Shown one piece after another: positions 201-57,697 of a stretch of DNA of 64,000 nucleotides. A model generated the notes under the pieces. It was not told where the DNA came from, made no database searches, and saw nothing but the letters and a program-made list of their open reading frames with translations. The DNA comes from Octopus vulgaris (Eukaryota). Location: the NCBI GenBank assembly GCA_951406725.2, contig OX597828.1, positions 57,970,001 through 58,034,000 of the forward strand, read 5' to 3'. A program made the translations under genes and the position numbers. How positions within the stretch are numbered: position 1 is the first letter of the stretch; every line of letters starts with the position of its first letter.

Positions 201-683
201 GAGAGAAGGAGAGAGAGAGAAAGGAAGAAAGAAAGAGGTAAAGAGAAAGAGAGAGGAGAGGGAAAGAGAAAGAAGGATAAAAAGCTTAAGATGGAAGTAA
301 TAATAATCTAAAAGGAAATAAAAAATCTAACTTGCCATTGTGATGACTTTACAATGTACTGTAACGGTTACATTAAACCGAATAATAAGTCTTATAAAGG
401 TAGTATTTTGCGATATAATCCGGTATTCAGATTACAAGTATCAGCTAAAATTGCTAGGGTATTGTTCTCAACATTAGACATTTTCCTAAATCTATTAGAT
501 ACAATAAATTTTTTAGTAGAGATATAGTATTTTCTACAGTTCTATATTTAAAAGATGAGGAATTGTGTACATTATTTACAATTGACGGATATTTGTCCTC
601 CTCTTGTTTGTTGCTAACACAACGCTTCAGCTGATATACATTCCAGCCTTCATCAGGTGTCTTGAGGTTCGAAATTTTCCCAA

Positions 684-729
684 GACACCTGATGAAGGCT
701 GGAGAGTATATCAGCCGAAACGTTGTGTT
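684..729 (+). ncRNA. Minimal type I hammerhead ribozyme, family 1 (PLE-type)
   Basis: GACAC-CUGAUGA-A-GGCUG..CAGCC-GAAA-CG-UU-GUGUU. An inverted, mutated copy lies at 616-661. Confidence 0.75.
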
Positions 730-1430
730 AACCACAAACAAGATGAGGATAAATATCCATCAATTGTAAATGATGTAAATAAAGTAGTCTTTTCTAGTTT
801 AGGCACAAGGCCTGAAATTTTGGGGGAAGGGGCCAGTCGATTAGATCTACCCCAGTACGCAACTGGTACTTAATTTATCGACCCCGAAATGATGAAAGGC
901 AAGGTCGAACTCGGTGTAATTTGAACTCAGAACGTAAATACAGACGAAGTACCGCTAAGCATTTTGCTCGGTGTGCTAACGTTTCTAATTTCTTTACTGC
1001 CTACAAGGGGCTAAACCTAGAGGGGACAAACAAAGACAGACAAAGTGATTAAGTGGATTACATCGACCCCCAGTGCGTAACTGGTACTTGATTTATCAAC
1101 CCGGAAAGGATGAAAGGCAAGGTCGACTCAGAACGTAAATACAGACGAAATACCTATTTCTTTACTATCCACAAGGGGCTAAACATATAAAGGACAAACA
1201 AAGACAGACAAACGGATTAAGTCGATTATATCGACTCCAGTGCGTAACTGGTACTTATTTAAGTGTTCATGTAGCAACATGGAGAGAAGACAAAGAGACA
1301 AGATGAAACTAGTAAAATATTACTGGATAATTCCAGATCCCGGATTTCTGACTTTGCATTTAGGAATGCTTTGCCTCATCAGTGGAATACACACAGAAAA
1401 TATATGTATTTATGTTTCTTTCTGTGTGTA

Positions 1431-1487
1431 TTCCACTGATGAGGCAAAGCATTCCTAAATGCAAAGCCAGAAATCCGGGATCTGGAA
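1431..1487 (+). ncRNA. Type I hammerhead in a 300-bp palindrome (mirror copy 1331-1387, minus strand)
   Basis: UUCCA-CUGAUGA-GGC..GCAUU/AAUGC..GCC-A-GAAA-UCCGGGA-UC-UGGAA. Confidence 0.78.
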
Positions 1488-25750: not shown

Positions 25751-26003
25751 ATTATTTCATATAATGTGGTTGAACCTCAGCTTAAAACCCAAGCGTCTTT
25801 AATTATTAACGTGACAGATGTTAATGATAACGCTCCCGTGTTCAAGGGACGGATGGAATTCTACTCACATCCTTCTGCACCTGTTAATTCAACGCTGGGG
25901 AAAGTTGCTGCAAAAGATAATGATTATTCGTCAATTAATAATCAAATCGACTACTTTTTACTGAACGGAAGTTTTGATAAGTTTACCGTCGATAAAAAGT
26001 CAG
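25751..26003 (+). CDS. Cadherin exon B (253 nt, phase 0->1)
   Basis: ttttatag|ATT ... TCAG|gtaact. IISYNV...INVTDVNDNAPVF...VAAKDND...DKFTVDKKSG, with a canonical DxNDNxPxF. Confidence 0.93.
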
Positions 26004-29000
26004 GTAACTTCTTTTCATATCTTATAAACAGTTGGTAAATTAGGTTGATTCTTCACGAAGAACAGTTCTCAGTATTTTGGGTCTCTTACAGGGAATAACG
26101 GACTTCTTTGTATTATGGGCATAAGGCCTGAAATTTGGGCGGTAATGGGTTACAGAGAATAATGGACTCCTTTTTATTATGAGCAAAAGGCCTGAAATTT
26201 TGGGGTTAGAGGGCCACCACAGTACTTGGCTCGTACATTTTTCATCGAATTTCTTTTATTTCCTATTTTAGGAATTTTATTCATACCAGCCTTTGACTTT
26301 TTTCTGTCCAAAAGAATCTTCAACCCACAATTTACATACTATTATTTACAGCATTTTGCGCTTCTCTTTCAGTTCTCTTGAAAGCTTATGAATTATCATT
26401 GCGTTTAAAATCTATAAATCCTAAAATTATCTTTAATGAATAATCTAAGAAACATTTTTCTGGATTGTTCTAATTCGTATTAAAATTTCATCATTAACTC
26501 TGTCAAATCACAGTAACACTGGACTTTCTAGACATTTTGGTTCTTTTGTGTAATACTTCTAACTATAAAATTTTGTTACTTCTGCTTATGACTTACTTTA
26601 GCTACGGATACATTTTGTATTTTTTTAGTAATAACGGATGTTTTTCAGAGGAATTAAGAAGCCGTCGCACACAAATACTTTTCAATGTTGTTGTCTTAAA
26701 AATTGATATCAACAAATGTAAATTTAACGTTGTACATGAATTTTACATAAATACGTTGATATGATGCGCTGAATGAAGTAGGAAAATATCCCAAATTGAA
26801 CGAAACTTCCCTCTTAATTCCACCATCATCAACCTCTGAACATTACTGCATTCAGTCTTCAGTCTCGGAGCACCGGTTACTCGGTTTCCATGGCGTATAA
26901 GTAACCGACATCATAACATTCTTTCTGAACGGGAAGACTATCCATCGTAGGTTTACTCATTTACATGGACTGGGTTATTGTGAAATGAAGTATTTTACTC
27001 AAGAGCACAACACAACATCCGGTTAGTGAAATGAAACCATGATCTTCCGATCGTCTGTGCAATACCTATTTCTTCACTACCCACAAGAGGCTAAACACAG
27101 AGGGGACAAACACGGACAGACACACGGATTAAGTCGATTATATCGACCCCAGTGCGTAACAGGTACTTAATTTATCAACCCCGAAAAGATGAAAGGCAAA
27201 GTCGACCTCGGCGGAATTTGAACTCAGAACGAGAAGGCAGACGAAATACGACTACGCATTTCACACGGCGCGCTAAAGTTTCTGCCAGCTCGCCGCCTGT
27301 GCAATACCGCTAATCACTAAGCCAAGTAGTTCTTGTTTTTTTTCCACATTTATCGCTCTTTATTAGAGAGAAAAAAAACAAAGACTTAGCTTTGTGAGCG
27401 ACTCTAAAAGAATTGGGAAGATAATATCAAGAAATGTTAGAATTAATCTCCCAAATTTAAATTAACTGCTTGGAGAAAAATTTAAAGCCTGTGTGCAGAC
27501 TGCGATAACTATGAACATGTTTCAGCCTATTAGATACTGTGTGGTCTCTTCAAGCCTGCATGATCAATTGACAATGAAATTCAGATAAAGACAATTTTAC
27601 AACATACTCCTAACGTCATTTTGGATCCCGGCTTTTTGCATTCTATTATTTCTTTTGCTATAGACTCTATTTTCCTCTGACGAAGTAAACATTAGTCTTA
27701 GAACGTCCACTATTGCTCTTCTGTATTCTCCTATTTTATCTGTTCCGATAGTTCTGTTCGATGAACATCGAGACTTACAGATTTTGTTTCTCTCATATTT
27801 GTTCTGCTTGCTTTTTCCTTGGGAAGTTAACAGTGTTTTCAGCTTATGTCCCATTATATTGTGTACACAACTTCTCTAATGTAAAAAACACGAAATGCCA
27901 TTGACTTCGAGTTTATTTGTAACCTTGCAACTGAACATTTTATAGCAAATATATTCTCTATGCTGATAGCAACAACCTTTAAATTGCAAAAACATGTTTT
28001 ATGCGGAATTGTGTGAAGATAACATCTGTTCTCACTTCTAATGCAATATTTCTGTAAATATGAATGTATAGTTAAGATGATTGTATTTAAAGACAACTGG
28101 TAATTTGCATGAAACACATTAAGTGGATTGTGCAGAGGAGAAGTAAATAATGTATGAAATAGATTCAACCAAGCTTCTTTATTCGACTGCCGCATTGTGA
28201 ATTGATCCGTGAAAATGTTTTAATCTTCTTACACTCTGTCGAAGAGTTAATTTGGCCGAGTGAATATAGTATAGGAATACCTATTTCTTTACTACCCACA
28301 AGGGGCTAAACACAGAGGAGACAAACAAGGACAGACAGGCGGATTAGGTCGATTATATCGACCCCATTGCGTAACTGGTACTTAAGACGGCGAGCTGGGA
28401 GAGACGTTAGCACGCCGGGCGAAATGCGTAGCCGTATTTCGTCTGCCTTCTCGTTCTGAGTTCAAATTCCGCCGAGGTCGACTTTGCCTTTCATCCTTTC
28501 GGGGTTGATTAAATAAGTACCAGTTACGCACTGGGGTCGATATAATCGACTTCATCTGCTTGTCTGTCCTCGTTTGTCCCCTCTGTGTTTTGCCCCTTGT
28601 GGGTAGTAAAGAAATAGGTACTTAATTTATCGACCCGGAAAGGATGAAAGGCAAAGTCGACCTCGGCGGAATTTGAACTCAGAACGTAGCGGTAGACGAA
28701 ATACCGCTAAGTATTTCGCCCGGCGTGCTAACGTTTCTGCCAGCTCGCCGCCTTGATTAGTTAATATATTAACGCTTTCCTGATAACACCCACACATTGC
28801 TTTAGCCAAGTATTGTTCGGAGTTGGAAATTCCAAAATGTTCCCTGGGAAACTTTTTGTGTCTTCCTAAAATTTATCTGAAATTTAAGTTATTACTTTGT
28901 CTTTTGCCTGATGTTTAAAATTTGATTCCACTTCATTCTCGATTCCAGTTTCATTTAGATATACTTTGTGTATATTGTACAAGTGTTTTATTAGAATACT

Positions 29001-34985: not shown

Positions 34986-35034
<49 letters not shown>

Positions 35035-35349
35035 ACAGGCTTCTTTCAGTTTCCGTCAACTAAATCCACTCACAAGGCTTTTGTCGGCCCGGGGCTATAG
35101 CAGAAGACACTTGCCCTAGATGCCGCGCAGTTGGACTGAACCCGGAACCATGTTGGTAAGCAAGCTACTTACCACACAGCCACTCCTGCACCTATGTATG
35201 TATGTAGGTATGTATGTATATGTATATATATATATATATACATACATACATACAAGTATATACATATATATGCATACATATACATACAGATATAAACATA
35301 CATACATGTATATACATACTTACGCACATATATATATATACATAAATAT

Positions 35350-35388
<39 letters not shown>

Positions 35389-36009
35389 ATGTTATATATA
35401 TGTGTGTGCGTGTGATTCAGTTAATAGCGGTAAAGCTGCCAGTGTTATATACATATATATATATAAAAATAATAATAACATATATATATATATAAATATA
35501 TATATATATATGTATGTATGTATTTATATGCGTGTGTGTGATGTGTGTGTATTATATATAATCAAGTTTTCAATAAAACGTACAATTGTTTAACTTTCTA
35601 AATCATACGGTGTTTGGCTGTTAAACTGAAATCTCCTTGAGGTGATTATCGCTAAACACCTGTTCTTACACATAAATAAATTATGCATTAAAATCGAACG
35701 AAACGACCGAGTTAATCGTTGTCTTACATCTCTTACATTTGTTCACCTTTCATAACATAGTCATTACATGATTCTATAAACTTGAATACTTGTACAAGTC
35801 AATGGACTGGATTTGCGCGAAACGTAATACGTTAGTCTCTGAAGTCATCGTCCGTACACACATTTGTACACACATTTGCTCATACAATGATACATCTCCT
35901 ATGTCGTCGTTAGACATGCTAGAAATAGCAGCGATATCCTTTCAAATTTAACCCCGTCATCTCAAAACTGTAAAGGACACATTGAAACATTGAATTATAT
36001 AGTTCTAGA

Positions 36010-36240: not shown

Positions 36241-37388
36241 TATATATAGTTCGAGATCCAACATAGTCTGAAATAAAAGATATCATGCCTTTTATTTTCT
36301 GTCTGGTTATTTAGGCATGACCTTTATGTTAAAGAAATGCAATAAACATGTTTTCGTCACTTAAAGCCACACCACTCTTTTTGTACCTAATATTTATGCG
36401 GTTTTCACCATAAGATTCCGCTCACGGAGCTCTTTTACTTACACTTTACTTTTATAGTTTTCTTTAACAGTAGTTGCGTTACTTAATATGATTCCTCTCA
36501 TAAAGCTCTTTAATATACACATTACTTTTGTACGCCTTTCTTTAACAATAGCTGAGATATTTTCATTCTGGGAATTACCATTATTTCGGGACAACTTTTT
36601 TCTGTATCAAATATTTATTGATGCGGTTTTCACCATAAGATTCCTCTCTCAGAACTCTTTAATATTAACAGTACTTTTGTACATTATTCTTTAATAGTAG
36701 CTGAGATATTTTCATTGAAGGAGCTACTTATCGTTCTTTTGTTACTTAGACTCATAGAAATTTTTGTATAAAGTATTTTGATTCCTTTGCAATAGCAAGA
36801 ACTCCATCTTGCTCTTGCACCCCTCCTTCACTAATACCACAGATCCATAGGTCGGATTGTTTGACAATTCTAAACTGTTCACAATGGTTATTATCCTCAG
36901 CAATCTTCGTTCCAAATTGACATCTCAACTCAGCAAATACTCCGAAGATCAGAGCTAACCTGGAGCACAAAAAGAATTAAACAAAGCACAGATACGCACA
37001 CACATACGAACCAACGAGAAATCTTTTACATGGTGACTTGACCTGCTAAGAAAAATAACTATATCCCCCTCAAACCATCTCCCGTCTTAAATATAGGAAG
37101 AACACGTTAGATAATGTAGTCCTAGATACTTTAAATAAACGGGATGGTCACGGATGGAATACCTTTAATCCTAGATCTACTGGATGCGGGTTAACCAGGG
37201 AGTAAACGGACAACTACAACAACTACACTACTACATTCACACACACGTACATACACACCTCCCACATAGACACAAGCACGCATACATACACCAGCACACA
37301 CATACACACACGCATACAGCAACACACACACACACTCACACATCTGAAAACATTTAATCTAACAACCAATTTCTATTTTATTCTGCAG

Positions 37389-37676
37389 GAGAGATTCTAA
37401 TATCAGACGAACTCTCCAGAGAACCGCTTCGTGAAGAATACTCGTTGAATATTTTGGCTGAAGATTCTGGAAATCCTAAGAAAAGTAGCCAAGTTCAAGT
37501 AAAAATCAAAGTCCCTTTGAACAAGCCACCATCCCTTCCAAAAAGACATCAATTTGAAGTGGCCGAAAATGTGAGAATTGGCACCATTATTGGATCCATC
37601 GAAGCGGAAGACGAAGAAATAGAGACCGGAAGTGATTTTGGTAATAACTTCGAATATCGTCTGACCAGTGAAACAG
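37389..37676 (+). CDS. Cadherin exon C (288 nt, phase 1->1)
   Basis: ttctgcag|GA ... ACAG|gtaagg. GEILISDELSREPLREEYSLNILAEDSGNPKKSS...FEVAENVRIGTIIGSIEAEDEE (AxDxGxP and VxEN motifs). Confidence 0.92.
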
Positions 37677-37784
37677 GTAAGGTAACAGTCATGGTGTTAT
37701 TGTAATTTCGTGTCTTTGTTTCGGTTGTTGTTGCTGTTTAATCTTTGATTAGTCTTGGTTAAGTAGATTAATCATCAAAGAATA

Positions 37785-40432: not shown

Positions 40433-40614
40433 ACAGGCTTCTTTCAGTTTCCGTCTACTAAATCCACTCACAAGGCTTTTGTCGGCCCGAGGCTATAGTA
40501 GAAGACACTTGCCCTAGGTGCCGCGCAGTTGGACTGAACCCGGAATCATGTTGGTAAGCAAGCTACTTACCACACAGCCACTCCTGCACCTATGTATGCA
40601 TGTATGTATGTATG

Positions 40615-40680
<66 letters not shown>

Positions 40681-40684
<4 letters not shown>

Positions 40685-42412
40685 AAAGGGCTTAGTAAAA
40701 TAAATTACTTTGCCGCATACTGAACTCATTAGAAATAGCAGCTAAAAAACTTTTTTAAAGCTATTTCTAATACTTAAAGAAAATCTCTCTCATATAGTGC
40801 TTGCTTAACTCAACTCACGAAAGTTTGGGGTAAGGACATCAAAAAATCAAATGCAAAGGTTATTTGAGAACGTGCGTTTCAAGATTAGTCAACACGACAC
40901 TTCTATCATCAGCTCAGAAACTCCTTGGTTTGGATTCAAATCCAAACCAAGGAGTTTCTGAGCTGATGATAGAAGTGTCGTGTTGACTAATCTTGAAACG
41001 TACGTTCTCAAATAACCTTTGCATTTGATTTTTTGATGTCCTTACCCCCAAACTTTCGTGAGTTGAGTTAAGCAAGCACTATATGAGAGAGATTTTCTTT
41101 AAGTATTAGAAATAGCTTTAAAAAAGTTTTTTAGCTGCTATTTCTAATGAGTTCAGTATGCGGCAAAGTAATTTATTTTACTAAGCCCTTTTATATAATG
41201 TAATAATTTGAATTCGCCTTAAATGGTCCCTTTGCATACTGAACACTTGGTGAAATTGATTAATAATTAATTAATTTTACCCTCAATTGTTGAAATTATA
41301 ATTAATCTCCCTCTAATTAATGCTTCGGATTTTACCGAAATAAGCATAGTGTTTGATGATTTTAACCCACGCTGGTGGAAAGGGGAGAACAGAAATTCTT
41401 CGCTTGCATATTTGAGTTTGTTGGCACTGTTAGTTGCGAGCAGATCTTCGAAAGCGATGAGAAGCCGAAAAGGTATGCTCTTACTTTCAGTGTTTTCAAA
41501 TCCAAACCAAGGAGTTTCCGAGCTGATGATAGAAGTGTCGTGTTGACTAATCTTGAAACGTACGTTCTCAAATAACCTTTGCATTTGATTTTTTGATGTC
41601 CTTACCCCCAAACTTTCGTGAGTTGAGTTAAGCAAGCACTATATGAGAGAGATTTTCTTTAAGTATTAGAAATAGCTTTAAAAAAGTTTTTTAGCTGCTA
41701 TTTCTAATGAGTTCAGTATGCGGCAAAGTAATTTATTTTACTAAGCCCTTTTATATAATGTAATAATTTGAATTCGCCTTAAATGGTCCCTTTGCATACT
41801 GAACACTTGGTGAAATTGATTAATAATTAATTAATTTTACCCTCAATTGTTGAAATTATAATTAATCTCCCTCTAATTAATGCTTCGGATTTTACCGAAA
41901 TAAGCATAGTGTTTGATGATTTTAACCCACGCTGGTGGAAAGGGGAGAACAGAAATTCTTCGCTTGCATATTTGAGTTTGTTGGCACTGTTAGTTGCGAG
42001 CAGATCTTCGAAAGCGATGAGAAGCCGAAAAGGTATGCTCTTACTTTCAGTGTTTTCAAATCCAAACCAAGGAGTTTCCGAGCTGATGATAGAAGTGTCG
42101 TGTTGACTAATCTTGAAACGTACGTTCTCAAATAACCTTTGCATTTGATTTTTTGATGTCCTTACCCCCAAACTTTCGTGAGTTGAGTTAAGCAAGCACT
42201 ATATGAGAGAGATTTTCTTTAAGTATTAGAAATAGCTTTAAAAAAGTTTTTTAGCTGCTATTTCTAATGAGTTCAGTATGCGGCAAAGTAATTTATTTTA
42301 CTAAGCCCTTTTATATAATGTAATAATTTGAATTCGCCTTAAATGGTCCCTTTGCATACTGAACACTTGGTGAAATTGATTAATAATTAATTAATTTTAC
42401 CCTCAATTGTTG

Positions 42413-42420
<8 letters not shown>
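40681..42420 (+). mobile_element. Non-autonomous PLE-like element: about 255-bp inverted arm plus about 2.6 tandem copies of a 560-nt unit, inserted in (TA)n
   Basis: Identical ORFs recur at a 560-nt offset (41267/41827). 40681-40936 is the reverse complement of about 40940-41195. One hammerhead per unit. Confidence 0.85.
40959..41010 (+). ncRNA. Hammerhead in the 560-nt repeat (further copies 41519-41570 and 42079-42130; inverted copy 40865-40916)
   Basis: UGAG-CUGAUGA-UAGA...UCUU-GAAA-CGUACG-UU-CUCA. Confidence 0.75.
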
Positions 42421-42463
<43 letters not shown>

Positions 42464-42932
42464 ATGCGTGTGTGTGATGTTTGTGTATTATATATAATCA
42501 AGTTTTCAATAAAACGTACAATTGTTTAACTTTCTAAATCATACCGTGTTTGGCTGTTAAACTGAAATCTACTTGAGGTGATTATCGCTAAGCACCTGTT
42601 CTTAGACATAAATAAGTTATGCATTAAAATCGAACGAAACGACCGAGTCAATCGTTGTCTTACATCTCTTACATTTGTTCACCTTTCATAACATAGTCAT
42701 TACATGATTCTATAAACTTGAATACTTGTACAAGTCAATGGACTGGATTTTCGCGAAACGTAATACGTTAGTCTCTGAAGTCATCGTCCGTACACACATT
42801 TGTTCGACTAAAGGCAGTGTTTCAGCACCGCTGCAGTCAAATGACTGACACAATTAAAAGAATGTGTATATATATACTAAATGATTGATACGGAAGACAG
42901 GGTGTACTGAAAGATTTATTAAGCACAATACA

Positions 42933-45638: not shown

Positions 45639-45822
<184 letters not shown>

Positions 45823-46056
45823 CAATTAAGGGTTTAGCAACGAATTGCCTCACCACACACCGAATTTAGAAATAGCAGTCAAAGAGTTATAGCTATTCTT
45901 TCTACTAAATTCGGTGTGTGGTGAGGCAATTCGTTGCTAAACCCTTAATTGCTTAGTATTACTTAAATTTTCCTCGAATGAGGCTTTTACATGCTGAAAT
46001 CTACTTGGTGTAATTAATAATTATTCCAAATTAATTAATTTCACCCTATATTGTTA

Positions 46057-46105
<49 letters not shown>

Positions 46106-46579
46106 CTTTCTCTCTCTCTCTCCTCCTCCTCCTCTCTCTGATGGAAATCAACTGTGATCAAACCTGAAGAAGAATTCGGCTTCGTATAGTTTAAACTGTC
46201 CAAGACACGCCTCGGGTTATGACGTCACCTCCTACGACTCGGAAATTAACATCCCAAGACAAACCAGTTCTTTATTTACCTGTTTTCCTTCAATAACTAA
46301 ATCTAAACATTTATAAGAGACATTTCATATAGTCTGGTTTGGGAGGGGATCGTGTGTCAGAAGAGAAACTTTCTATTACCAAAATATGTAGAAGTTCGTT
46401 GTGTGCGCCTAACTACTAATAAATAAACATTTTAATATTTCTGTTTCGTATTTCTCTTTTGTTTTTTATTTGGTCGTTTTTTGCTTTGCTCTGTTTCTTT
46501 TTTTGCTTTGTTTTTTATATTCCAAAAGTATTTTAGACTAATTTAAGAAACTTTCATATCTCTATATTTTGTATTGAAG

Positions 46580-46818
46580 GACCTTTTGTTATTGACAAGA
46601 TGAAAGGCGATTTGAAAACGCAGCAGATACTTGATGCCGAAACGGTCAATGAATACAAGTTTTTAGTAAGCGTAATAGACCGCGGAATCCCTCGATACAC
46701 AGTTACAACTTCTGTTCATGTTATTGTTAAAGATATCAATGATAATCCTCCACAATTCAGCTCTCCATTTGGGTATAAATCATATATTCTTGAAGGATTT
46801 GAAGGCGTTTTACCAATT
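46580..46818 (+). CDS. Cadherin exon D (239 nt, phase 1->0)
   Basis: attgaag|GA ... ATT|gtaagt. PFVIDKMKGDLKT...LDAE...VIDRGIP...VKDINDNPPQF...ILEG. Confidence 0.92.
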
Positions 46819-48278
46819 GTAAGTAAAAGTTCATGAAATGTTTTAAAATTTCATATTCTTCTCTGAGAATACCTCTATGTTTATAAGCGTATTATGTGTC
46901 GGTTTTCGTAATCTGAGTTTAAGCCTAGTTAGATGAGCAGGCAGAATTGTTACCGAGCAAAATGCTCAACCACATTTCTTTCGACATTTTATGTTCTGAA
47001 TTTAAATGCCACCGTGGTGGAGTTTGCTTTTTACCCTTTCGATCACCATAAAATAAGTATTAGTTGAGCACTAGAGTCGATACAGTTGGCTTCATCCTCT
47101 TTTCAAAATCGATGGCTTTGAGCCAAAATTTGAGTCATTTAATTCCAGTTCGTTTTTCGTCAGACTTATGACAAAGGCGTTCCAAACATAACAATCTCGA
47201 TTTATTTTGAGACAATGTATCCAAAATTGCAATATACCATATATCCTTTCTTTAAACTGATAATAAGTAGTTTGAAAGAAATTTTGTTATAACTGAAAAT
47301 AAAGGCTGAACAGAACACACGTGACTAGCTTGCCTCACATCCACGAACCAACCAAAACGCGTCTACGTCATGGCTCAGCTTATTATCTTTCCTTTGTTGA
47401 TGCGTGGATGCAAGGTCTGTTCTATAATGGCTTTTCTTCAGTTAGATGGATAGATAGATAGATATATAGATAATTAGATAGACATATATATATGTTCTCA
47501 TAGCTTGCTTACGAACCACATGGTTCTGGGTTCAGTCCCACTGCGTGGCACCTTGAGCAAGTGTCTTCTACTATAGCCCCGGGTCGACCAAAGCCTTGTG
47601 AGTGGATTTGGTAGACGGAAACTGAAAGAAGCCCGTCGTATATATATATGTATGTGTCTGTATATGTTTGTGTGTCTGTGTTTGCCCCCCCCCCCCACAA
47701 CATCGCTTGACAGCCGATGCTGGTGTGTTTACGTCTCCGTAACTTAGCGGTTCGGCAAAAGAGACCGATAGACTAAGTCTTACAAGGAATAAGTCCTGGG
47801 GTCGATTTGCTCGACTAAAGGCGGTGCTCCAGCATGGCCACAGTCAAATGACTAAAACAAGTAAAAGAGTAAAAAAAAAGTATGAATATTTAGTAGAGAA
47901 ACAACTGAATGACGTAGTAAACACATCCTCAAACATAAACACTCAGTAAGACCAAAACTTTGTGAACGAAGATACAGAACGCCTTGTTCGATTGTTGAGC
48001 ATCTCTGAGTCACTGCAACATGATCGTTCATACATTGACATCTCAATTTATTGCTGGTTTCTTACTCTTTTGTCTTTGTATCTGCATCCAATCCGTTATC
48101 TCGGTGTACAAAACATGTAGAAATATGTTGAATTGCATTTTTATCCAATATTTGCCAACGGGAAGCAAAACGAACATAAAGTAAATCAAAATTCCATTGC
48201 GTCAATGAATTACGACTATCATGATCGCACATCATCTAAAGGTAGATGCTTTCCTGTGACGAAATACAACAGTCATCA

Positions 48279-48924
48279 GTATATCCAGGTTCGAATCCAC
48301 CAAAATGCATTAAGAATGAATTTGCTGATTTCTATAAACAACATCCAGTATTCTTGTTAGATTCATTGATCCTGGGGAGCTTTTACTGAAGAGACATACA
48401 ATAAGGCCGAAACAGCGCAGTGTTTCAAAGTTTCCAGACGTATATCCAGGTTCGAATCCACCAAAATGCATTAAGAATGAATTTGCTGATTTCTATAAAC
48501 AACATCCAGTATTCTTGTTAGATTCATTGATCCTGGGGAGCTTTTACTGAAGAGACATACAATAAGGCCGAAACAGCGCAGTGTTTCAAAGTTTCCAGAC
48601 GTATATCCAGGTTCGAATCCACCAAAATGCATTAAGAATGAATTTGCTGATTTCTATAAACAACATCCAGTATTCTTGTTAGATTCATTGATCCTGGGGA
48701 GCTTTTACTGAAGAGACATACAATAAGGCCGAAACAGCGCAGTATTTCAAAGTTTCCAGACGTATATCCAGGTTCGAATCCACCAAAATGCATTAAGAAT
48801 GAATTTGCTGATTTCTATAAACAACATCCAGTATTCTTGTTAGATTCATTGATCCTGGGGAGCTTTTACTGAAGAGACATACAATAAGGTCGAAACAGCG
48901 CAGTGTTTCAAAGTTTCCAGACGT
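48279..48924 (+). repeat. Tandem array, 4 x 161 nt
   Basis: atatccaggttcgaatcc starts at 48281, 48442, 48603 and 48764; copies are nearly identical. Confidence 0.95.
48855..48920 (+). ncRNA. Type I hammerhead in the 161-nt tandem array (best copy; others start at 48372, 48533, 48694)
   Basis: CUGGGGAGCUUUUA-CUGAAGA-GAC..GUC-GAAA-CA GCGCAG UG-UU-UCAAAGUUUCCAG. Confidence 0.7.
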
Positions 48925-53226: not shown

Positions 53227-53470
53227 ATTACAGCTAAAAATAAAAGGCAAATGGCAACTAGCAGTTTGGAAATAACAGTTCAAGACTTAAATGATCATAC
53301 ACCAGAGTTTCTCGATGAATACGAATTCCATGTTGACCCCAAAACATCAGTTGGCAAAGTTATAGGCCAGGTTAATGCTGTTGATGGAGATCAGTCAGCA
53401 AAAAACAATCAATTTGGTTTCTTTCTTCAAAATGGCAGCTGGGACAAATTTTCAGTTGACACCCAAACAG
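53227..53470 (+). CDS. Cadherin exon F (244 nt, phase 0->1; paralogue of exon B)
   Basis: ttctag|ATT ... ACAG|gtaagt. ITAKNK...ITVQDLNDHTPEF...VNAVDGD...NNQFGFFLQNGSWDKFSVDTQTG. Confidence 0.93.
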
Positions 53471-53634
53471 GTAAGTTCAAATCTGTTACATTGTTTTGGG
53501 GGGTTTTTTTATTGTGTGTGTGTTCTTGGAGTCTTCGACGTTTTCTATCCGAAATTTACATGCTATCATTTATAGCTTAACATGTGCTTCGAAATCTACT
53601 GCTACTACTACTACACACACACACAAACGCAGCA

Positions 53635-57495: not shown

Positions 57496-57527
<32 letters not shown>

Positions 57528-57697
57528 CACTTAATAATTAGGGTTCAGCAAAGATTTTCCTTACCACATACCGAAGTTTAGAAATAGCAGCCAAAAAACG
57601 TTAGCTATTTCTTCTACTTTCAAAAGGGACTCCCAGAAAAACCAAAATACTTTAAAACAATCCACACAGGCAGAGAGGAAGAAGTAACGAAGATCAA

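What the first reader, a model, noticed from the sequence alone, without database searches (positions are those of the whole stretch)
40681..42420. 1.74-kb inverted + tandem ribozyme element with four hammerheads
Seen: an inverted ~255-bp arm followed by almost identical 560-nt units, bounded by (TA)n on both sides. The hammerheads have a palindromic ACGUACGU stem III, and no recognisable protein is encoded. Established: partial-tandem and inverted pLTR layouts are typical of PLE insertions. Inference: a young non-autonomous element whose tandem hammerheads could dimerise in cis and excise a 560-nt RNA, while the inverted arm would sequester the first hammerhead in dsRNA.
Basis: partly seen in the sequence, partly recalled or inferred. 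Interest (0 to 1): 0.7.

Follow-up and report, generated by a model that had tools for sequence, protein, structure and literature searches.

The report
Two-armed hammerhead retrozyme, Penelope-type ends
This is one young copy of an abundant, protein-free repeat that carries a predicted self-cutting RNA motif; the kind is known, but its insertions nearly always pair two different fixed ends, which suggests that a Penelope-type enzyme copies one RNA, likely a circle, into both cut DNA strands.

Summary
The structure is real: a 258-bp inverted arm joined head-to-head to 2.65 copies of a 560-bp unit, between (TA)n runs. Three hammerheads lie on + and one on -; only three have the palindromic stem III. 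The family is large (4,781 exact hits of one 27-mer) and young. A duplicate of both flanks in the same window lacks the element. Insertions end at only two fixed sites about 100 nt apart (A and B). Two-armed copies pair A with B in 35 of 38 position-ordered and 28 of 31 top-scoring loci, never B+B, and both arms carry the same haplotype. The hammerhead core is invariant across subfamilies while its loops vary. Best reading: a non-LTR retrozyme mobilised by a Penelope-like RT/endonuclease that primes from both nicked strands on one RNA. Cleavage, circular RNA and the partner enzyme are not shown; no autonomous element with these ends was found in 50 loci. The class, the one-sided 'tail' and two RT start sites are published, and this scan already noted the same pattern in other families of this genome. 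New member of a known kind.

The parts
40603..40684 (.). left (TA)n target microsatellite
   Evidence: sequence
40679..40936 (-). inverted arm, unit positions 199-457, outer end at fixed site B (outer boundary ambiguous within TA)
40869..40912 (-). hammerhead core in the arm; stem III variant ACGCACGU, not palindromic
40935..40936 (.). head-to-head junction, 2-nt overlap, near-register (unit positions 199/195)
40935..41300 (+). 5'-truncated unit 1 (unit positions 195-560)
40963..41006 (+). hammerhead 1 core (C3 to N17); predicted cut GUU/C at 41006/41007; predicted paired with the arm
41301..41860 (+). full unit 2 (560 bp)
41523..41566 (+). hammerhead 2 core; predicted cut at 41566/41567; private C at 41519 weakens stem I
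41567..42126 (+). predicted 560-nt monomer between hammerheads 2 and 3 (inferred; fold z-score -6.2 measured on the unit 1-2 monomer 41007-41566)
41861..42420 (+). full unit 3, outer end at fixed site A (...GTTGAAAT/TATA)
42083..42126 (+). hammerhead 3 core; predicted cut at 42126/42127; private C at 42079
42272..42412 (+). conserved structured end module (also 41152-41292 and 41712-41852); site B (about 42317-42322) lies in its TA-rich loop, site A just 3' of it; inferred RT-recruiting signal
42417..42465 (.). right (TA)n target microsatellite
34990..35867 (+). local duplicate of both flanks (93.6% and 97.2% identical) without the element: empty-site proxy

Best explanation
This is one recent insertion of a 560-bp non-coding repeat with a type I hammerhead motif in each unit, likely a non-LTR retrozyme pasted in by a Penelope-like RT/GIY-YIG enzyme. 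Shown: thousands of dispersed copies in (TA)n, head-to-head arms, two fixed outer ends (A and B, about 100 nt apart), A paired with B, one haplotype per insertion, conserved hammerhead core, conserved end module. Inferred mechanism: tandem copies are transcribed; hammerheads cut (probably as dimers through the palindromic stem III, perhaps protein-assisted) and release a monomer that is ligated into a circle; the enzyme binds the end module, nicks both strands of a (TA)n target, and primes reverse transcription at site A from one strand and at site B from the other on the same RNA; each cDNA may run round the circle more than once; the two cDNAs are joined by short microhomology (a minority perhaps by snap-back). 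Arrays can later grow by block duplication, which probably made unit 2 or 3 here.
For: Family size: 4,781 exact 27-mer hits, control 0; 98-100% identical top hits on many chromosomes. Ends: two-armed loci A+B 35 of 38, A+A 1, A+other 2, B+B 0 (1 more locus complex) among 56 position-ordered loci; A+B 28 of 31 among 40 top-scoring loci. After collapsing four loci that share one junction, 32 of 33 A/B-only loci are A+B, p=4e-9 against 0.5. One-armed loci use both ends (18 A, 8 B). One template: arm-to-arm mismatch 10 of 507 polymorphic cells within loci, 26.6% between loci (31 loci). Two independent primings: either arm may be longer (28 vs 21 of 49), and in 7 of 49 neither arm contains the other (one search lists 8; L112 is an end-offset artefact). 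More-than-unit template: 33 of 49 A arms and 36 of 49 B arms pass the hammerhead cut, with no pile-up of inner ends there (3 of 119, 2.3 expected). Hammerhead: C3-A6, G8, A9, G12-A15.1, U16.1 invariant in 25 distinct variants, N7 is U/C/A, N17 is U/A, loops II and III change length; 88% of cells paired vs 31-40% when slid. Module: 5 of 45 pairs with two-sided change, shared by other families (1,051 hits of a pattern that excludes this family). A young autonomous RT+GIY-YIG element in the same genome has the same habits: (TA)n, two 3' ends 40 nt apart, tail on one arm in 2 of 2 two-armed copies. Published: tail at one end (PMC8557442, PMC3846280), both-strand nicking and two internal RT starts (PMC11167929), circle model (PMC4209133, PMC7229834).
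Against: No cleavage, circle or confirmed RNA was observed (contigs only). Hammerhead covariation does not exceed shuffles (253 of 500); Rfam does not recognise it; the 10.1-11.1 pair is unpaired in 23 of 25 variants; the forced hammerhead fold is only -2.1 and -1.0 kcal/mol. In PMC11167929 uncleaved RNA was the main substrate and RT start sites did not differ between strands; in bioRxiv 10.64898/2026.07.22.740005 only 1 of 9 dimers cleaved. No autonomous element with this module at its end in 50 GIY-YIG loci nor among 30 module loci. 7 of 49 junctions, this one included, are in register (permutation mean 1.2, p=6e-5), which fits fold-back. Private variants repeat with 2- or 3-unit period in only part of some arrays (L038, L048, L054, L067), so long arrays are not pure RT products.
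Confidence: 0.62

Rival explanations
1. Same Penelope-type twin priming, but the template is an uncleaved linear read-through of an existing array; the hammerhead is weak or acts at another step and no circle is needed.
For: PMC11167929: hammerhead mutants did not affect insertion in vitro. Non-canonical 10.1-11.1 pair and weak fold. L059 shares two variants between arms in only some units, as a mixed multi-unit template would.
Against: The core is invariant across subfamilies 74-99% identical. Most source loci are short, and only 1 of 56 position-ordered loci has more than one strand switch, whereas read-through of two-armed sources should carry junctions along. Not decisive.
Confidence: 0.22
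2. One priming only: the inverted arm is made when the cDNA folds back or jumps onto itself and is copied to a TA-rich site that anneals to the target (self-priming, as proposed for rotifer Penelope in PMC3846280).
For: 7 of 49 junctions in register, including this locus; both arms share a haplotype; site B is TA-rich.
Against: 42 of 49 junctions are out of register; in 7 loci neither arm contains the other; B arm exceeds A arm in 21 of 49; a copied arm ending by microhomology should often end at A again, yet A+A is 1 of 69. It may account for a minority, possibly this copy.
Confidence: 0.1
3. Local satellite, recombination product or assembly artefact with a chance hammerhead-like motif.
For: No long read spans this locus in the runs served; some arrays show post-insertion block duplication.
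Against: The same fixed ends at 96 loci on many chromosomes; empty duplicate of the flanks; conserved core.
Confidence: 0.03

Closest known systems
Animal non-LTR retrozymes (Cervera and de la Pena 2020, PMC7229834, parts 2 and 4 of 6 plus passages read; Li, Clavereau and Pollet 2026, bioRxiv 10.64898/2026.07.22.740005, parts 1-3 of 5 read, supplements not seen)
   Same: ORF-less tandem repeats, a type I hammerhead in every unit, GC below 50%, dispersed multi-copy; Penelope-like elements proposed as mobilisers.
   Different: 560 bp exceeds the 150-450 bp of the 2020 paper (inside the 51-972 bp of the 2026 preprint); hammerhead lacks G10.1-C11.1; in the parts read neither paper describes fixed paired ends or inverted arms; circles and cleavage were shown there, not here; no homologous pLTR found here.
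Endonuclease-bearing Penelope-like elements (Craig et al. 2021, PMC8557442, passages; Arkhipova et al. 2013, PMC3846280, passages)
   Same: Partial tandems, inverted 5'-truncated copy, optional tail often at one end only, (TA)n preference; non-autonomous multicopy head-to-tail derivatives known in Chlamydomonas (MRC1).
   Different: No RT/EN ORF; tail about 100 nt rather than 30-40; the one-sided tail is close to a strict rule here.
Poseidon PAc of Anolis in vitro (Frangieh et al. 2024, PMC11167929, parts 1-2 of 4 read)
   Same: Both strands nicked in AT-rich DNA; two internal RT start sites downstream of the hammerhead define the tail; predicted dimer.
   Different: Start sites did not differ between strands in vitro, whereas genomic copies here pair A with B; sites are 195 and 294 nt past the cut.
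PLE hammerhead variants (Cervera and de la Pena 2014, PMC4209133, parts 1-2 of 4 read)
   Same: Type I, short helix I, long helix II with irregularities, small palindromic helix III suited to dimers.
   Different: Their highly conserved G10.1-C11.1 pair is replaced by U.U, A.A or A-U.

Membership tests
Animal non-LTR retrozyme | Tandem units of a few hundred bp with a type I hammerhead in at least two consecutive units | tested here: met
   560-bp period, cores at 40963, 41523, 42083; arrays of up to about 12 units elsewhere
Animal non-LTR retrozyme | No protein-coding capacity; GC below 50% | tested here: met
   longest frame 123 aa, three frames scanned without Pfam match at cut-off; GC about 0.33
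Animal non-LTR retrozyme | Conserved catalytic core in homologues | tested here: met
   core invariant in 25 distinct variants; 165 near-identical copies with one A13 change
Animal non-LTR retrozyme | Canonical helices (G10.1-C11.1, loop 1-2 contacts) as in coral retrozymes | tested here: not met
   10.1-11.1 unpaired in 23 of 25; no Rfam hammerhead hit; fits the looser variants allowed in PMC4209133 and the 2026 preprint only in part
Animal non-LTR retrozyme | Self-cleavage of the RNA | not testable with these tools
   needs in vitro transcription
Animal non-LTR retrozyme | Expressed as monomeric linear and circular RNA | tested here: inconclusive
   only contigs of runs guessed to be RNA; no raw reads
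Animal non-LTR retrozyme | Target-site duplication longer than 4 bp when present | tested here: inconclusive
   both ends lie in (TA)n, so a duplication cannot be read
Animal non-LTR retrozyme | No LTR, PBS or PPT | not tested
   no LTR layout is seen in any locus, but PBS and PPT were not searched
Penelope-like element (autonomous) | ORF with RT and GIY-YIG endonuclease | tested here: not met
   none in the element; tblastn hits near family copies are separate fragments
Penelope-type insertion | Partial tandem plus inverted 5'-truncated copy, tail at one end, microsatellite target | tested here: met
Non-autonomous derivative of a named PLE | End homologous to the pLTR of an autonomous PLE in the same genome | tested here: inconclusive
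   none in 50 loci taken from 148 scored of 6,136 GIY-YIG candidates

The most novel reading that the evidence does not exclude
A Penelope-type enzyme dimer loads on one small RNA circle through a shared 150-nt structured module and assigns one start site to each nicked DNA strand, so every two-armed insertion is a single twin-primed rolling-circle event; many unrelated non-coding families in this genome parasitise one enzyme through that module. This would explain the Penelope 'tail' asymmetry and give the missing insertion step of animal retrozymes.
Probability: 0.4. Interest if true: 0.72.

Novelty: new member of a known kind. Interest (0 to 1): 0.42.

Why it matters
How retrozymes get into the genome and why Penelope insertions have inverted arms with a tail on one side are both stated as open in the papers read (PMC7229834, PMC8557442, bioRxiv 10.64898/2026.07.22.740005). 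This family supplies thousands of copies with a near-strict end rule, a defined RNA module and a 560-nt template small enough to synthesise, so the twin-priming and circle models can be tested directly. The class itself is known, and other families in this genome were already reported by this scan with the same pattern.

Tried and rejected
Rfam: no hammerhead family matched; the E-value hits were miRNA-like hairpins caused by the inverted arm. RNA evidence: no RNA holder on record was listed; contigs of four runs guessed to be RNA cover the unit but cannot show strand, ends or circles; one 492-nt contig (X14) begins at 41567, the predicted cut, and wraps round the unit, but contig ends are not RNA ends, so I give it no weight. 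Long-read check: only short contigs, none bridging the (TA)n. Partner search: a Pfam accession recalled from memory was not in the library; GIY-YIG search gave several Penelope-like families whose 3' ends do not match by blastn or by a module profile; a contig loose end led to one 34-bp fragment. Linear cleaved monomer as template: rejected, no pile-up at the cut. Dimeric circles as the cause of 2-unit periodicity: rejected, alternation breaks within arms. RNA editing fixed in DNA: private substitutions show no A>G excess (12 of 131). Pairs of the module's outer helix in alignment A3 were imposed by my search pattern and are not counted as evidence; only pair 15-93 (6 two-sided changes) is partly independent. 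Literature searches for a published strict A+B rule in retrozymes found none; the library lacks most subscription journals, and supplements were not read. PMC13282606 (octopus repeat annotation, passages) does not mention ribozymes. PMC3138052 (passages) lists GUU among cleavable triplets; that it cuts more slowly than GUC is recalled, not from a call. PMC11875169 (passages) added nothing.

Full report
Observation. The sequence at 40679-42420 is as described, with small corrections. A 258-bp arm on the minus strand is joined with a 2-nt overlap to 1,486 bp of tandem sequence, 2.65 copies of a 560-bp unit. Units differ at one position, 40959. Three hammerhead cores are on + and one on -; the arm copy has lost the palindrome in stem III. 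There is no credible ORF. Cadherin-like exons on + flank the site (about 25.8, 37.4, 46.5 and 53.3 kb), so the element probably lies in an intron with three hammerheads in the sense of the host transcript (inferred; gene model not built). Window 34990-35867 duplicates both flanks at 94-97% identity and lacks the element, so it was probably inserted after that duplication.

Family. The unit gave 1,281 candidates in the genome, 40 scored, at 98-100% identity, and a 27-mer from it has 4,781 exact matches against 0 for the control. I examined the 40 top-scoring loci (biased to long young arrays) and all 56 loci that hold the first 100 listed matches of the 27-mer (ordered by position, so not chosen for shape). 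I number the unit so that 42420 is position 560.

End rule. Outer ends fall at 560 (site A) or about 457-469 (site B), followed in nearly all cases by (TA)n. Among position-ordered loci 38 are simple two-armed, 1 is complex and 17 one-armed; 35 of the 38 are A+B, 1 A+A, 2 A+other, none B+B. Among top-scoring loci 28 of 31 are A+B and 3 A+other. Four loci share one junction; collapsing them gives 32 of 33 A/B-only loci, p=4e-9 against an even chance. One-armed copies use either end (18 A, 8 B). A third, partly redundant set of 20 loci from a divergent subfamily gave 10 A+B of 14 two-armed rows, the other 4 having one poorly aligned end.

One template, two primings. At 24 polymorphic columns the two arms of a locus differ in 10 of 507 cells, against 26.6% between loci. 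This shows one source haplotype; it cannot tell one molecule from one source locus. In 49 A+B loci with clean junctions (the others were dropped for gaps over 7 nt, shared junctions or alignment drop-outs), either arm may be longer, and in 7 neither arm contains the other, so both must have been copied from RNA. However 7 of 49 junctions, this locus among them, are within 5 nt of register (permutation mean 1.2, p=6e-5), so fold-back may make a minority. Most arms run past the hammerhead cut and inner ends do not gather there, which excludes a cleaved linear monomer as the usual template and leaves a circle or an uncleaved multimer. Private variants recur with 2- or 3-unit period in only part of some arrays; I read this as later block duplication, and the C shared by units 2 and 3 here probably arose that way.

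Hammerhead. In 25 distinct variants from subfamilies down to about 74% identity, all catalytic positions are invariant; N7 and N17 vary within the allowed letters and loops II and III change length. Pairing is 88% against 31-40% for slid controls, but two-sided covariation is limited to one pair and does not beat shuffles. The 10.1-11.1 position is U.U or A.A in 23 of 25 and A-U in 2; Rfam does not score the motif. Monomer stem III has pairing probability under 0.1, the dimer duplex is -13.0 kcal/mol, as expected for the dimer-dependent PLE ribozymes of PMC4209133. Activity is therefore likely selected in the family but unproven, and may be reduced at this locus.

End module. Unit positions 408-560 are more conserved than the rest and fold into a multiloop with B in a TA-rich single strand and A just downstream; 5 of 45 pairs show two-sided change. 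A pattern that excludes this family found 1,051 matches in other families with other unit lengths (about 640 bp among them) and the same layout. I infer that the module, rather than the ribozyme, recruits the enzyme.

Partner. A GIY-YIG search found several Penelope-like families, including a very young one with an intact 781-aa RT+GIY-YIG frame, an upstream 479-aa frame, a CxxxxCxxC motif of the Neptune/Nematis type described in PMC8557442, a U3-A8 hammerhead, (TA)n targets and two 3' ends 40 nt apart. It shows that such machinery was recently active, but its end does not match this unit or the module; nor do the others among 50 loci. The partner is unidentified.

Comparison and verdict. It works like a Penelope-mobilised non-LTR retrozyme and meets the sequence criteria for that class, except the canonical helix II; cleavage and circles could not be tested. 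The class, its link to Penelope-like elements, the one-sided tail and two internal RT starts are published. I did not find the strict A+B pairing, shared haplotype or shared module in print. Earlier notes of this scan describe the same two-armed pattern in families of 356-590 bp in this genome; they are unchecked and not independent support, and a sequence look-up found no note on this unit. My first reading was written before I saw them. Verdict: new member of a known kind, interest 0.42.

Noticed in passing
window 45821-46061: A second, older two-armed insertion of about 240 bp from another family with the same end module: B-type end left, A-type end right, (TA)n on both sides.
   Followed up: partly
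window 57523-57620: One-armed B-type fragment of another module-bearing family.
   Followed up: partly
window 48279-48924: Four 161-bp units, 99% identical, three matching a loose hammerhead descriptor (CUGAAGA...GAAAC), with another core on the minus strand at 48279; possibly another small retrozyme-like insertion.
   Followed up: no
window 620-760, 11020, 12776, 57706: Fragments of an abundant repeat with a minimal hammerhead (CUGAUGA...GAAACGUU); the copy at 620-760 is head-to-head.
   Followed up: no
window 1340-1480: Head-to-head pair of CUGAUGA cores (1382 -, 1436 +) from a further repeat family.
   Followed up: no
L177-L194 (e.g. L188:781-5572): Very young autonomous Penelope-like family, 4.7-kb unit, 479-aa plus 781-aa frames, U3-A8 hammerhead, 40-nt tail, (TA)n targets; at least 16 copies with the open 781-aa frame fetched.
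   Followed up: partly
alignment A1, columns 16 and 47: The hammerhead 10.1-11.1 position switches from U.U to A.A between subfamilies and is Watson-Crick in only 2 of 25 variants; unexplained. Stems I and II also share an AGU/UAA internal loop (seen by eye).
   Followed up: partly
window 25751-26035, 37358-37702, 46537-46833, 53227-53577: Cadherin-repeat exons on +; the element seems intronic with sense hammerheads, which could cut the host pre-mRNA if active.
   Followed up: partly
L102, L105, L111, L130, L133: These loci share the same short A+B junction (482/328 in four; L133 has the same 482 A-arm start), suggesting one insertion later spread as part of another repeat.
   Followed up: no
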